Shown here piece by piece: positions 3,520 through 35,780 of a stretch of 64,000 nucleotides of DNA. The translations under genes were made by a program, and so were the position numbers. Position 1 is the first letter of the stretch. Each line of letters starts with the position of its first letter. Source of the DNA: Eledone cirrhosa (lineage: Eukaryota); contig OZ024752.1 in the NCBI GenBank assembly GCA_964016885.1, positions 9,176,001-9,240,000 of the forward strand, in the 5' to 3' direction. Below the pieces are notes generated by a model. It did no database searches. It had not been told where the DNA came from and saw only the letters and a list, made by a program, of their open reading frames with translations.

Positions 3520-3831
3520 CATATACTGTGATGTGGTACTTGCTAACATGTAGATTAGATCTGCAAATAATACTCATGTTGTCTTCCTGTATACTTATAT
3601 TAATGATAGTCAATGTACAGATAGTATTTTGACAACTAGTTATTTGACGGTTGCCAAAATATTTATCATTGCCTTCGTCAACCAATCCATTATATCCAGC
3701 AATAAGTGATCCATCTCCAGTATACCAAGTTGTAATATCTCCCCTCTTTCTTACACATTTCAATGTGAAGTTTTTATCTTTTATAGCATTTGGTGTTTCA
3801 GAACTTGGGTAAAGATTCTTCCCAGTCTCAT
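3520..3831 (-). CDS. Ig-like domain exon A, copy 1
   Basis: Canonical AG/GT boundaries, 312 nt, phase 1-1. Reads ETGKNLY...FTLKC...WY...IICRS...ITVY. Confidence 0.85.
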
Positions 3832-4103
3832 CTAAAAACACAAATTAAGACGAGATAAAATAAGAATTAATCCAAAATTTAAGAGAAATTTTAACAATAA
3901 ATTGAAACAAGCCTAATAGTTCATATTCCATTTGTGTGAAGACAGGCAGGGCTGTGCTGTTTAGCCCATGGAAGCAGGGAAAGCAGATGTAAAGTATGTT
4001 GATGATGATGATGATGATAGTGATGATGAGCATAGTATTAGGGGGAGTGGGGTGTTATATGGAATTGACTTAGATTTTTAGTTTTTTCTTATGTTACATC
4101 ACC

Positions 4104-4672
4104 AGTAGCAGCAGCAGCAGCACCACAACCCCCCAACATCATCATCATCATCATCACTACTACTACCACCACCACCAGCATCATCACCACCACCACATTC
4201 ATAGCCATCACTACCACCATCACCACCACAACCATCATAACCACCACCACCACCAGCACCAGCATCAACATCACCACAACCATCATAACCAACACCACCA
4301 CCACCACCACCACCATTGCCACCACCACCACCACCACCACAACCGTCATAACCGCCACCACCACCAGCATCAACATCACCACCACCACAACCACCAACAT
4401 CATAATCATCACTAAAACCATCATAACCAACACCACCACCACCATCACTGCCACCACCACCAGCATCATCACCACCACCACCATTGCCACCACCACCACC
4501 ACCACCACAACCATCGCCACCACCACCACCACCATCACTGCCACCAGCACCAGCATCAACATCACCACCACCAACATCATCATCATCACCACCACCACCA
4601 TCACCACCACCACCACAACCATCATAACCACCACCACCACCATCACTGCCACTGCCAACAACACCATCATCA
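4104..4672. repeat. (CAC/CAT)n trinucleotide array
   Basis: Degenerate CAC/CAT/CAA repeats. Paralog at 24483-25069; deleted in unit 3. Confidence 0.95.
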
Positions 4673-5509
4673 TAAATAATACAAAAAATAAATTATATTC
4701 AGATATAAGATAAATCTAAATGTGCTAAACATGTCACAAAAGAGATTTTATGGAGGGAAGAGTAAATGGAATGATTCTGAGCAAGAATCATGAGATACAA
4801 AATTCAAGTTCAATTTATGTCACATTAATAGATTTAATAAATGATTTTAATGACAATATATAGAGGGCTGATAACTTATTAATATAACTGTTTCTTGTAA
4901 AAATATTATGCTCTTACCAATATACAATAAAATTGTGGTATTAGATAATAATCAAACTGTAATATCCTGTATCTGTGTGTAGACATACAAAATATATTGT
5001 AATACTTTATAAGATCTACAAAATCAGTGTTGCTTTATAAGAGAAAGGCAACTTTCTAACAATAGGAAATTGAGGAAACAGTGTTAGTTTTTTCAACATT
5101 GTTGCTGATATTGTGAGAAATAGCAGCCAAATCTCACCTTACTGTTTTTCAGATCATTGTTTAAATCTAGTGACATGAAAATAATATATTAGATAAGGGT
5201 CATCTTAACTAAACTGTATTCCTTATAGGTTTGCTTGATTAAGGATGACTTAGGAATACATAACAACAAATAGGGAGAGGAAAAACAGATTTTATCAAAG
5301 AACAAATGAATAATTGAGTAGTTTCTACTGTGTTTTCGGATGAACCAATTAACTTCAACTGTAAACATTATTTTTAGTTGTTTTACTTCTTTTACATCTA
5401 AAATTGAGTTTATGCATTGAATTCTTCAAATCCAGAATTATTCAGGAATAATGTACCTGGTGACAATCAAAACTTTAATCTATTTATATTCTAAAGATCA
5501 GTTTGATAT

Positions 5510-5716
5510 TGGTTTCTGCTTTAGGCACAAGGCCAACAATTTTGGGGGAAGGGAAAGTCGATTAAATTGACCCCAGTGAATTACCAGTACTTATTTTTTT
5601 TATCCCATAAGGATGAAAGGCAAAGCTAACCTCAGCAGGATTTGAACTCAGAACGTAACTCTATGCCACTATGTATGTTATCTGACGCTCTACCGATTCT
5701 GCCAAATCACCACCCT
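5510..5716 (-). mobile_element. tRNA-derived SINE
   Basis: Minus strand has A-box-like TGGCAGAATCGG, B-box GTTCAAATCC and the ctttcatcct...aagtactgg core. Multiple copies in the window. Confidence 0.75.
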
Positions 5717-5796
5717 AAAGAAGAGTTGAATATTAAACAGAAGTGTTTATTTTAATTTAAAAAAAAACCTCTCATGATAAATATTTAAATTATTAC

Positions 5797-6298
5797 TTTG
5801 CACTTGATAGGTTTGATGCTAAGTGCTGCATGGCTGCAATGAAAATCAGTGCTGCAGAAACTGAGACACTTGTCCTCTTAAGGAAGCCTGCGCAATGCAC
5901 TCTATACGTGAGTGGAGTTCCACTGAAGCAGATGGAGAAGTTCAAGTATCTCAGAGCCATGTTCACAAGTGATGGAAGGCAGGTGGCAGAATTAAGTAAT
6001 ACATCAGCTTCAGCATTTGGTAATCAAAAGAAGCGAGGTAGGTGTAAAAGCCAAACTCACTATCTTCAATTTGGTATTCATGCCAACCCTTATCTATGGC
6101 CATAAATCTTGGCAAATACAAGTGGCCGAAATGGGGTTCCTCTGAAGGGTCTCTGGACTAACATTACTCGATAGAGTGTATAGCTCGGAGATCAGAGAGT
6201 CACTCCAGGTAGAACTGCTACTTCTCCAGATTGAGAGATCACAGCTCTGATAATATGGGCATATGGTTAGAATGTCTCAGGGAAGAATTGGTGAGCAA
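5797..6298 (+). mobile_element. Old RTE-like LINE fragment
   Basis: EKFKYL, PTLIYGHKSW, AEMGFL, YGHMVRM with stops and frameshifts. Paralog at 26195-26718. Confidence 0.7.
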
Positions 6299-6573
6299 GA
6301 AGGAGGAGGAGGAGGAGGAGGAAAGGGAGGAGGAGAAGAAGAAGGAGAAATATATATATATATGTGTGTGTGTGTGTATGTGTTGATTTTTGACAGCTAT
6401 GGTATAAATGTCTGTAATTTCAAGCTATCTATATTGTCAGGATATTTGTTAGGGAAATAATGCGAAATGTGTTATTATGTAAACATTATTTATTTCAATA
6501 TAATAGAGAAATATTATTAGAAAAATGAAAATACAAATATAAATGATATAAATAATTATTATTTAGTACTTAC

Positions 6574-6852
6574 TAAATAATGGAACAACTATAAATTTTG
6601 TGAACGCAGTCTTGTTGAAACAGGAAATGTCTACGTTAAAGGTGGAAAGAAGGGTGAAGTGTAAAATATTTGGTTTACTGGACTCCACAGATGCGTTAAA
6701 CTTATTATGTACAATAGGCTTCCAATTAGGACTATTAGTGTACACAGCTCCCACCTTCCAGGATGTAATTGTCTCTGGATCATCAACAGGACATTGGAAA
6801 ATTAGGTTTTCATTTACCCTGTGAAATTTTGTACCACCTTCTGTGATAGGAA
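6574..6852 (-). CDS. Ig-like domain exon B, copy 1
   Basis: Canonical AG/GT boundaries, 279 nt, phase 1-1. Reads PITEGG...LIFQCPVDDPETITSWKV...DISCFNK. Confidence 0.75.
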
Positions 6853-7142
6853 CTGAAAAAGAACAAAACAAAATATATATATATATACAATTGATTACGT
6901 TCTTTAATTTTTCTAATGGAAGAGGAACAATTTGAAATAAATTAAAATATCATGGATTACACAGAATTAATTGGAAAATAAATGTTTTATGTATATTTTA
7001 AAGCTAAATACAGATATAGTTATTGAGGACTAATGGAATGGAATAAAGTATGAATGTCAGGTTGAAATCCTGCCAATATTTCACAATGGATATCGAAAAT
7101 ATCACATTGGTGTGAAAGACTAAAAAACTATAATGACATCTA

Positions 7143-7306
7143 CTTTAGGCACAGTGCATTACTGGTACTTTATTTTATCGACCCCGTAAGGATGAAAGGC
7201 AAAGTCAACCTCGGCGGGATTTAAACTCAGATCGTAAAGGGACGTAACTATGCTGGAAAGCATGGCGTCCGACCCTCCACCGATACTGCCAATCCACCGC
7301 CCTGTA
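7143..7306 (-). mobile_element. tRNA-derived SINE, unit-1-specific insertion with TSD
   Basis: Flanked by AATGACATCTA direct repeats (7132-7142, 7307-7317); the paralogous site near 27575 is empty. Confidence 0.8.
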
Positions 7307-34032: not shown

Positions 34033-34034
34033 GC

Positions 34035-34820
34035 CATATATATCCAATGAGGATATCTTCAACCAAGCGGCAGATTACTACAATAGGGCCCCGATAAGCG
34101 CCGGCTTTAACCGAGGAATTTCCTACATCCCTAACCACCCCCCTCATAAAACAAACGTTATAGTAAGCCATACCTATAACCGATCATGCGGCGACCTCGT
34201 TGAAGTCGGATATAATAGAATAGATAACCGCACCAAAGATCACGACCCCGGCGACGGTGACCACTGTAGATTACTCAAACTATTCCCCTATTACAAAACC
34301 AACAAAGGCGACGGCCTACTACCAACGCCTTCCAACCAACATCTTCGTGTACATAAACATGGAAGAGGTAGCAAGAGTGCACCTGAGCATAAATAGAAAG
34401 GGGCACCGAACGGGCGACTGCGCATTAACACACATAAGAGCGGTCACCTAGATGGAACCACCCGGCGGGCAGGCGCTGCAAAATAACACCCAGGAAACAA
34501 TCCTTGCATACCAGACCCAGCCTCAGACAAACAGATGCGGCTAAAAAAAAAAAAAAAAACAAATTTGCCCGGGAAAGACTGCCCTAACACCGGCCAGAGT
34601 TACCACCCTTGACCTGCTGCAAAATCAAAACAATATATATTTGCGAGCAATGAACCTTGATGTGGATTTAACCCCCAAAACTCTTTCCGAGCAATATAAG
34701 GAACATTTGTGATTATTTATACCCTTGAGAAGCCCAACTGGGCGAAACGTACGTAGGTGCTGTTTTAAATAAACATGTTTTAACGGTCTATTCTCCGATT
34801 TTTTACTTTCCCACGTGCAT
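34035..34820 (+). mobile_element. Penelope-like remnant (paralog of 48-838)
   Basis: Near-identical to the start of the window. Confidence 0.55.
34721..34759 (+). ncRNA. Minimal hammerhead ribozyme, U3-A8 variant
   Basis: Identical to 735-773. Confidence 0.6.
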
Positions 34821-34900
34821 ATACATACATATATATATATACATACATATACATACATACATATATATATACATACATATATATATACATACATATATAT

Positions 34901-34943
<43 letters not shown>

Positions 34944-34995
34944 CATATATATATATATATGTACATACATATATATATATATATGTACATATATA

Positions 34996-35050
<55 letters not shown>

Positions 35051-35319
35051 ATACATACATATATATATATACATACATACATATACATACATATATATAC
35101 ACACAAACATACATATACACACAACCATATATACACACAAACATATATATACATATATATAAGTACACATATATAAACATACATAATATATACATACATA
35201 TATATATACACATACATATATATAAACATACATATATAAACATACATATATACACATACATATATATAAACATACATATATACAAACATACATATATATA
35301 CATACATACATATATATAC

Positions 35320-35350
<31 letters not shown>

Positions 35351-35468
35351 CACATACATATATTTATATATACATACATATATATACATAAACACACACA
35401 CACACATATATACCCACACACACAGATATTCATATACACCCACATATATATTTTTAAAATTAACTTAC

Positions 35469-35780
35469 CATATACTGTGATGTGGTACTTGCTAACATGT
35501 ACAAGAGATCTGCAAATAATACTCATGTTGTCTTCCTGTAGAGTTATATTAATGATAGTCAATGTACAGATAGTATTTTGACAACTAGTTATTTGACGGT
35601 TGCCAAAATATTTATCATTGCCTTGGTCATTCAATCCCAGATATCTAGCAATCATTGATCCATCTTCAGTATACCATATTGTAAAATCTCTCCTGTTTCT
35701 TACACATTTCAATGTGAAGTTTTTATCTTCTATAGCATTTGGTGTTTCAGAACTTGGGTAAAGATTCTTCCCAGTCTCAT
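35469..35780 (-). CDS. Ig-like (V/I-set-like) domain exon A, copy 3
   Basis: tgtttttag acceptor, G|gtaagt donor, 312 nt, phase 1-1, no stops. Has FTLKC, WY and [17 protein letters not shown]g signature motifs. Confidence 0.85.

What the first reader, a model, noticed from the sequence alone, without database searches (positions are those of the whole stretch)
3520..35780. Exon A copies diverge almost only non-synonymously, in the CDR-like loops
Seen (manual count): A1 vs A3 has 15 amino-acid differences in 104 codons and no purely synonymous codon change. A2 vs A3 has 15 plus 1 synonymous; A1 vs A2 has 6 plus 1 synonymous. The adjacent ~270 bp of intron differs at only about 2 sites between units 1 and 3. 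Ten changes fall between the first Cys and GNDKY (KRGDITTWYTGDGSLIAGYNGLVDE vs [25 protein letters not shown]) and others just after the second Cys. Several are multi-nucleotide codon changes. Known: these regions correspond to the BC loop, C-C'-C'' strands and FG loop, the ligand-binding face of V-type domains. Inference: strong diversifying selection on a binding surface.
Basis: partly seen in the sequence, partly recalled or inferred. Interest (0 to 1): 0.9.

Follow-up and report, generated by a model that had tools for sequence, protein, structure and literature searches.

The report
Octopus receptor with fast-diversifying binding face
An uncharacterised octopus cell-surface immunoglobulin-type receptor gene carries repeated copies of its two outermost domains, which differ almost only in amino acids on one predicted outer face, a signature of selection for new binding specificities that likely reflects an arms race with pathogens or a self-recognition role.

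Summary
Observation confirmed: the three 312-nt exon A copies differ by 6, 15 and 15 amino acids with 1, 0 and 1 synonymous codons. Alone they are weak evidence (dN/dS 2.1, p=0.28). With all 7 close copies in the genome, dN/dS is 3.4 (p=0.007), 4.1 without A3; neighbouring exon B behaves alike (3.0, p=0.002), and exons diverge several-fold faster than their introns. Exon A is domain 2, a predicted V-type Ig fold, of an uncharacterised octopod type I receptor: one leader exon, tandem D1-D2 cassettes, D3, transmembrane exon, predicted tyrosine-motif tail exons. Correction: the strongest sites lie mostly on outward positions of strands C, C', F, G, not in CDR-like loops; none is in the BC loop. 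A second paralog triplicated the same cassette with different breakpoints, and one spliced contig shows that paralog's B-A join. Caveats: A3's six private bases were not seen in read contigs, control exons show no clear purifying selection, and ligand and tissue are unknown. It works like CEACAM/Siglec or Hydractinia Alr2 but is not shown to belong to either. New variant of a known kind.

The parts
3520..3831 (-). Exon A1, domain 2 (predicted V-type Ig), cassette nearest the membrane
6574..6852 (-). Exon B1, domain 1 (N-terminal Ig-like domain), 279 nt, phase 1-1
7702..9245 (.). 58-bp minisatellite at the upstream end of cassette 1; the duplication junction lies at its end
23899..24210 (-). 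Exon A2, domain 2 of cassette 2
27014..27292 (-). Exon B2, domain 1 of cassette 2 (2 nonsynonymous differences from B1)
27946..28911 (.). 58-bp minisatellite of cassette 2
35469..35780 (-). Exon A3, domain 2 of cassette 3; six private bases not seen in read contigs
36578..36777 (.). Assembly gap (200 N) where an exon B3 would be expected; B3 is not assembled
46589..46658 (-). Single leader (signal-peptide-like) exon, ATG at 46655, phase 1 donor; beyond the gap, so its link to the cassettes rests on scaffolding and on the same order in the gap-free paralog

Best explanation
The three exon A copies are domain-2 exons in tandem two-domain cassettes of one octopod Ig-superfamily membrane receptor gene, their amino-acid changes exceed the neutral rate and cluster on one predicted outer sheet face, and this likely reflects an immune-type receptor whose binding face is being diversified against pathogen ligands. 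Shown: exon layout (leader, B-A cassettes, one D3, one transmembrane exon 7 and 12 kb below the window start); excess of nonsynonymous change in both D1 and D2; mosaic sharing of variants among copies; a spliced B-A join for a paralog. Inferred: unequal crossing-over at repeats multiplies the cassette; point mutation plus gene conversion reshuffles the G-F-C-C' face; all cassettes have identical splice sites, so the default product would be a chain of differently specific D1-D2 modules on one stalk, with skipping possible because all exons are phase 1; ligand binding would be signalled through predicted tyrosine-motif mini-exons (ITIM-like and YxN) to SH2 proteins.
For: Minimum changes 49 nonsynonymous: 7 synonymous in 7 A copies (p=0.027) and 77:11 in 6 B copies (p=0.003), counted per codon column without a tree; single-base changes only 35:3 and 42:3 (p=0.01-0.03, 0.001-0.005). 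Own codon ML: dN/dS 3.4 (p=0.007) and 3.0 (p=0.002); M2a vs M1a 2dL 62 and 44; without A3 4.1 (p=0.007); star and locus trees 6.0 and 5.5. Exon A more diverged than intron in 19 of 21 pairs at p<0.01, e.g. 16/309 vs 2/1927 (pairs not independent). 9 of 13 outward front-sheet positions vary against 2 of 34 inward or back-sheet strand positions (p=2e-5); D1 14 of 31 front vs 1 of 16 back. The same columns vary among 14 Octopus family sequences (Spearman 0.42). 57 of 136 informative site pairs are incompatible. Homologues are type I receptors with tyrosine-rich tails. 2 of 4 predicted 36-nt tail exons fit the ITIM consensus (consensus as). Same pattern is documented for pathogen-bound CEACAM N-domains (PMC8860441, passages).
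Against: No ligand, tissue or infection data. No contig showed expression of the window's own copies. A3's six private bases and its intron deletion were not seen in three read-contig sets of one sample, though a base shared by A1 and A2 was also missing, so contigs drop variants. Control exons (D3, leader, transmembrane) differ 14 nonsynonymous: 3 synonymous at about the intron rate and the background class fits dN/dS near 1, so purifying selection is not evident. Recombination inflates site-model tests. Face assignment rests on strand parity from a predicted model, not coordinates. Tail exons are predicted only. Hydractinia Alr2 shows the same signature for self-recognition, so the signature does not pick immunity.
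Confidence: 0.55

Rival explanations
1. Self/non-self or cell-identity adhesion receptor: each D1-D2 variant binds only its own or a matching partner through the front sheet, as Hydractinia Alr2 or Dscam do, and selection favours new identities (neural wiring, skin or sucker self-recognition, kin or gamete recognition).
For: In Alr2 the variable and selected sites lie on the side with strands C and C' and change homophilic specificity (PMC8282982, passages), matching the face found here. Membrane-proximal domains weakly resemble Kirrel/nephrin-like adhesion proteins (20-26% identity).
Against: Only 3 assembled genes and 7 cassettes, too few for a wiring code; several different specificities would sit in one molecule; tails are rich in signalling tyrosines; octopuses are solitary, non-fusing animals (own knowledge).
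Confidence: 0.25
2. Cassette-choice system: only one B-A cassette is spliced into each mRNA, giving Dscam- or sDscam-like isoform diversity on a constant stalk and tail. This concerns splicing and can hold together with either function.
For: One leader and one transmembrane exon serve three cassettes in two loci, all phase 1. The family is richly alternatively spliced in O. bimaculoides annotations (isoforms X1-X8).
Against: No leader exon per cassette (4 leader copies for 7 A exons), unlike sDscam (PMC4835542, passages); splice sites identical among copies; the cassettes are very young (introns 98-100% alike).
Confidence: 0.2
3. Relaxed or neutral drift of redundant young duplicates, with gene conversion homogenising introns and a few consensus errors (A3 sits 0.8 kb from a gap); no adaptive meaning.
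For: Three window copies alone are not significant (p=0.28); A1/A2 exon equals intron divergence; control exons evolve near the neutral rate; A3 private bases unconfirmed.
Against: Neutral drift caps dN/dS at 1; result holds without A3; synonymous divergence in the exon stays at intron level while nonsynonymous is several-fold higher; up to five residues at single codons among 7 copies on alternating strand positions; bases typical of A1/A2, all three R5 copies and the R39 copy occur in read contigs; no stop or frameshift in 13 exons.
Confidence: 0.07
4. Targeted hypermutation (deaminase-like) or copying from hidden donor pseudo-exons generates the variants.
For: Several multi-base codon changes; mosaic copies.
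Against: Spectrum is transversion-rich (11 of 34 two-allele sites in exon A are transitions); such processes would bring synonymous changes; no further donors among 11 candidates scored (a lower bound).
Confidence: 0.05

Closest known systems
Octopod uncharacterised Ig receptors: O. bimaculoides LOC106874069, LOC106869178, LOC106879981, LOC106874545; O. sinensis LOC115212116; Argonauta hians GAB1598814.1
   Same: Direct homologues: leader, D1, D2 (43-62% identity to A1), C2-type domains, transmembrane helix, tyrosine-repeat tail; same D2 columns variable.
   Different: Retrieved homologues have a single D1-D2 pair and a longer stalk; the window gene repeats D1-D2 and has lost D4-D8. No function is annotated.
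Hydractinia Alr1/Alr2 allorecognition receptors
   Same: Invertebrate single-pass IgSF proteins with atypical V-set domains missed by Pfam, selected sites on the C/C' side, ITIM/ITAM tails, exon shuffling.
   Different: Two diversified domains repeated in tandem here; sequence homology, Fn3-like domain, allelic polymorphism and homophilic binding not shown.
Vertebrate CEACAM (and, from own knowledge, Siglec/SIRP/LILR) receptors
   Same: Positive selection concentrated on the V-domain binding face, gene conversion among paralogues, tyrosine-motif tails.
   Different: No orthology (about 16-17% identity to CEACAM N-domains in structural alignments); no activating partner with a charged transmembrane residue found; both D1 and D2 diversify.
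Chelicerate sDscam tandem 5' cassettes
   Same: Tandem cassettes of one or two Ig domains upstream of shared constant exons.
   Different: sDscam cassettes each have a promoter and leader; here one leader exon serves all; 3 cassettes instead of up to 40; not a Dscam by sequence.
Gastropod FREPs / VIgLs (own knowledge; listings)
   Same: Molluscan diversified Ig domains.
   Different: Those are secreted Ig-lectin proteins; this family is membrane-bound with no fibrinogen or lectin domain found.

Membership tests
V-set Ig domain | B-strand Cys, C-strand Trp, F-strand Cys, E-strand Leu, D-strand Arg | tested here: met
   C25, W35, R61, L73, C89 invariant in 26 sequences and on the expected strands
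V-set Ig domain | V-type fold with C' strand | tested here: met
   Model pLDDT 89.8; best structural match CD8 alpha, Z 13.2, rmsd 2.1, 99 aligned; top rows are nearly all V domains
V-set Ig domain | C'' strand | tested here: inconclusive
   Only a two-residue bridge at 50-51 in the model
V-set Ig domain | Pfam V-set profile and DxxxYxC motif | tested here: not met
   No Pfam family at E<=1 for A1 or A3; the Tyr before the F-strand Cys is Ile
Octopod LOC106874069/LOC115212114-like family | Homologous leader, D1, D2, D3 and transmembrane exons in order | tested here: met
Hydractinia Alr | Sequence homology and Fn3-like membrane-proximal domain | not tested
   No direct comparison run; no Fn3 Pfam hit in homologues, but Alr domains also evade Pfam
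Hydractinia Alr | Allele-specific homophilic binding that controls fusion | not testable with these tools
   Needs binding assays
Paired inhibitory/activating Ig receptors (CEACAM/Siglec type) | ITIM-type tail motif | tested here: inconclusive
   2 of 4 predicted 36-nt tail exons of this gene fit [ILVS]xYxx[ILV]; exons not verified by RNA
Paired inhibitory/activating Ig receptors (CEACAM/Siglec type) | Activating twin with ITAM or charged transmembrane residue | tested here: not met
   All 3 transmembrane exons found lack a charged residue in the hydrophobic stretch; no ITAM spacing in the tail exons found; a fourth gene is broken by a gap
Paired inhibitory/activating Ig receptors (CEACAM/Siglec type) | Pathogen ligand and immune-cell expression | not testable with these tools
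   No tissue or binding data
sDscam / clustered protocadherin-type cassette genes | Own promoter and leader exon per cassette | tested here: not met
   4 leader copies in the genome, one per locus, none inside a cassette
Dscam-type mutually exclusive splicing | One cassette per transcript | tested here: inconclusive
   One spliced contig shows a single B-A join only
FREP / VIgL | Secreted, Ig plus fibrinogen or lectin domain | tested here: not met
   Transmembrane exon present; only Ig families above cut-off in homologues

The most novel reading that the evidence does not exclude
Cephalopods have their own germline-encoded variable receptor system: a family of tyrosine-signalling Ig receptors in which a two-V-domain recognition cassette is repeatedly and independently multiplied inside genes, reshuffled by conversion, polymorphic in copy number between animals and selected at splicing, giving an octopus analogue of KIR/CEACAM/Alr/Dscam diversity, with tail mini-exon arrays tuning the signal.
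Probability: 0.2. Interest if true: 0.85.

Novelty: new variant of a known kind. Interest (0 to 1): 0.62.

Why it matters
Diversified recognition receptors are known from vertebrates, cnidarians, tunicates, arthropods and snails; in 10 literature searches I found none described for cephalopods. This gives a named, testable candidate family with orthologues in laboratory octopus species, a short list of specificity residues on one face of two domains, and an architecture in which both the sensing cassette and the signalling mini-exons expand by tandem duplication. It makes the question of how octopuses tell self from non-self directly testable.

Tried and rejected
Pfam on A1, A3 and B1: nothing meaningful. 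Homodimer prediction of D1-D2 of a homologue: no answer, score 0.00, no evidence either way. Run search: no RNA holder listed on record. In the spliced contig set only the R5 membrane-proximal variant was laid; absence of the window's variants and of other cassettes there is not evidence, and the contig stops one base past exon A, so the downstream partner is unseen. Docking/selector-type complementarity between the leader intron and cassette 1 introns: best 13 low-complexity bases, nothing credible. tblastn with homologue tails found no tail exons; a splice-pattern scan did. R5 as an uncollapsed haplotype of the window locus: considered unlikely because 20-60 kb of flanks on each side differ and R5 has no gap in 140 kb, not excluded. 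Profile search of solved structures is biased because I had put Kirrel-like sequences in the alignment, so its Kirrel/IrreC hits were not used. ESM Atlas: unnamed, partly molluscan clusters and V-set clusters at 0.93-0.94, no name. Earlier findings: none. M7/M8 and MEME were not run. The A1/A3 intron figure of 39/893 is probably inflated by repeat edges; not checked.
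Full report
Observation. The window is G000:C12:9176001-9240000 of a 3.0 Gb genome; the closest named proteins are from Octopus and Argonauta, so it is an octopod. Exon A occurs three times on the minus strand (3520-3831, 23899-24210, 35469-35780), 312 nt, AG/GT bounded, phase 1 at both ends, no stop. Codon differences over 103 whole codons are 6 nonsynonymous + 1 synonymous (A1/A2), 15 + 0 (A1/A3), 15 + 1 (A2/A3); the 274-bp intron next to it differs at 2 sites between units 1 and 3.

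Gene anatomy. A1 matches domain 2 of uncharacterised O. bimaculoides receptors (57-61% identity, E 1e-30 and 2e-28). Using them as queries, the window gene reads: one leader exon (46589-46658), gap, A3, B2-A2, B1-A1, then outside the window one D3 exon (C12:9168561 downward) and one transmembrane exon (9164134 downward). A splice-pattern scan predicts two kinds of tail mini-exon further down, four of 36 nt (YxxI/F-x-YLE) and four of 57 nt (DIYVN/T), in tandem units; 2 of the 4 short ones fit the ITIM consensus quoted. These tail exons are predictions. B3 is not assembled; a 200-N gap lies where it is expected. The genome search found 7 close A copies and 1 distant one among 11 candidates, 6 B copies among 8 and 4 leader exons. 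They form three genes on C12: this one, R5 at 5.41-5.44 Mb (leader, three B-A cassettes, transmembrane exon, no D3) and R39 at 39.25-39.29 Mb (leader, one B-A, D3-D8, transmembrane exon, the layout of the Octopus homologues). A fourth leader is followed by the minisatellite and a gap. R5 and this locus are 96-99% alike over roughly 76 and 123 kb with unlike flanks, which fits a segmental duplicate better than a second haplotype. Their cassette junctions differ: in R5 the junction lies 112 bp inside an LTR-retroelement edge, here at the minisatellite end next to a LINE, so the cassette appears to have been triplicated twice independently.

Selection. The three window copies alone give dN/dS 2.1, p=0.28 against 1, and M2a vs M1a p=0.02 (my own GY94-type implementation). 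All 7 A copies give 3.4 (p=0.007) and 2dL=62; the 6 B copies 3.0 (p=0.002) and 2dL=44. Without A3: 4.1 (p=0.007); star tree 6.0; locus tree 5.5; B without the R39 copy 5.3. Because 57 of 136 informative site pairs are incompatible (conversion or recurrent mutation), site-model p-values are inflated, so I also used tree-free counts: 49:7 for A (p=0.027), 77:11 for B (p=0.003), choosing synonymous paths wherever possible, and single-base steps only 35:3 and 42:3 (p 0.01-0.03 and 0.001-0.005). Exon A is more diverged than alignable intron in 19 of 21 pairs at p<0.01 and exon B in 13 of 15; the exceptions are A1/A2, A1/A3 (p=0.097), B1/B2 and b1/b2. Synonymous divergence stays near intron level (0-4%), so the pattern is not old exons with converted introns. 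Against: between this gene and R39, the D3, leader and transmembrane exons differ by 14 nonsynonymous and 3 synonymous codons in 162, about the intron rate, and the background class sits at dN/dS 1; purifying selection is not demonstrated.

Structure. The A1 model (26-sequence alignment, pLDDT 89.8) has strands A, B, C, C', D, E, F, G and matches V domains: CD8 alpha Z 13.2, rmsd 2.1, 99 aligned; Foldseek gives MOG, nanobodies, TCRs and ZIG-8; Pfam gives nothing. The 11 sites with posterior above 0.9, in A1 numbering from ETGK, are I32, T34, Y36 (strand C), G45, N47 (C'), V50, E52, N54 (C'-D connector), N92 (FG loop), V95, H99 (G). Taking parity from conserved core residues, 9 of 13 outward positions on C, C', F, G vary against 2 of 34 inward or back-sheet strand positions (p=2e-5); the BC loop has three changes, each in one copy only. 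D1, mapped on a homologue model, varies at 14 of 31 front-sheet and 1 of 16 back-sheet positions among the five copies of this locus and R5. The same D2 columns vary among 14 Octopus sequences, some redundant (Spearman 0.42, p=1e-5).

Reads. Four contig sets of one study were laid on A3 and 520 bp of intron. One contig of run X3 covers the exon exactly from acceptor to donor and continues into the end of an exon B: a spliced product, though the run is not on record as RNA. It matches the R5 membrane-proximal copy at 20 of 20 listed letters and that cassette's B exon alone among 6. So the predicted splice sites are used and the family is transcribed; expression of the window's own copies is not shown. 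The three genomic-looking sets (one sample) contain letters typical of A1/A2, A1 alone, the three R5 copies and R39, plus one unassembled nonsynonymous letter in a single contig of depth 6. A3's six private letters and its intron deletion were not seen; neither were A2's one private letter and K17, shared by A1 and A2, so these contigs lose variants or come from another animal. A3 stays unverified, but only 2 or fewer private substitutions showed in its 520 bp of intron, and the result does not depend on it.

Mechanism. Most likely a signalling receptor whose two outer domains bind a changing ligand through the front sheet; cassette duplication adds modules, mutation and conversion diversify them, selection keeps the amino-acid changes. 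I put diversifying selection at about 0.9, an immune or pathogen-facing role at 0.55 and self or cell-identity recognition at 0.25. Whether cassettes are spliced in series or chosen singly is open.

Known systems. Primate CEACAM N-domains show selection on the binding surface and conversion among paralogues (PMC8860441, passages). Hydractinia Alr2 has selected sites on the C/C' side that set homophilic specificity (PMC8282982, passages); the Alr family has atypical V-set domains and ITAM/ITIM tails (10.1101/2022.03.04.482883, passages). sDscam has tandem cassettes, each with its own promoter (PMC4835542, passages), which is not met here. It works like the first two; membership is shown only for the uncharacterised octopod family. 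Ten searches of the open literature, including six LOC identifiers (0 papers), showed no description of this family in the listings; passages of a 2026 review (PMC13428168) and of the SPLASH preprint did not mention it. Subscription papers and supplements, such as octopus expression tables, were not seen and could list these genes.

Verdict. New variant of a known kind; interest 0.62.

Noticed in passing
window 37662-41493: Decayed LTR retrotransposon (protease, reverse transcriptase, RNase H by Pfam) inserted in the 58-bp minisatellite, TG...CA ends with a 5-bp direct repeat; the same insertion is in the R5 paralog.
   Followed up: partly
window 9247-23500 and 28912-34818: Nested, decayed LINE clusters (endonuclease, reverse transcriptase, PHD finger) duplicated with each cassette.
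   Followed up: partly
G000:C12:9127600-9152150 (L022, L023, L057, L058): Tandem 4-6 kb units each carrying predicted tyrosine-motif tail mini-exons; copies differ mainly in residues around the tyrosines; number differs between the three genes.
   Followed up: partly
G000:C12:39187389-39187589 (L068): A fourth leader exon followed by the minisatellite and an assembly gap, with no B or A exon found within 67 kb below it; a fourth gene may be unassembled.
   Followed up: partly
G000:C1:171627900-171634500 (L082): Distant paralog with leader, D1-like, D2-like and a second D1-like exon, related to O. bimaculoides LOC106876419.
   Followed up: no
P0052, P0061 clusters: Cuttlefish proteins share the membrane-proximal domains, and P0052 has a repeated tyrosine tail, so part of the family predates octopods.
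   Followed up: no
window 36054-36059: Unit 3 lacks about 1.15 kb of the A-B intron including the CAC-rich repeat, and 10 bp near 36129; neither deletion was seen in read contigs.
   Followed up: partly
window 1009-1380 and 59374-62178: Long near-perfect inverted repeats: a 370-bp hairpin and arms around 60200-61560.
   Followed up: no
exon A codon 99: The His/Asn change toggles an N-glycosylation sequon on strand G (present in 3 of 7 copies).
   Followed up: no
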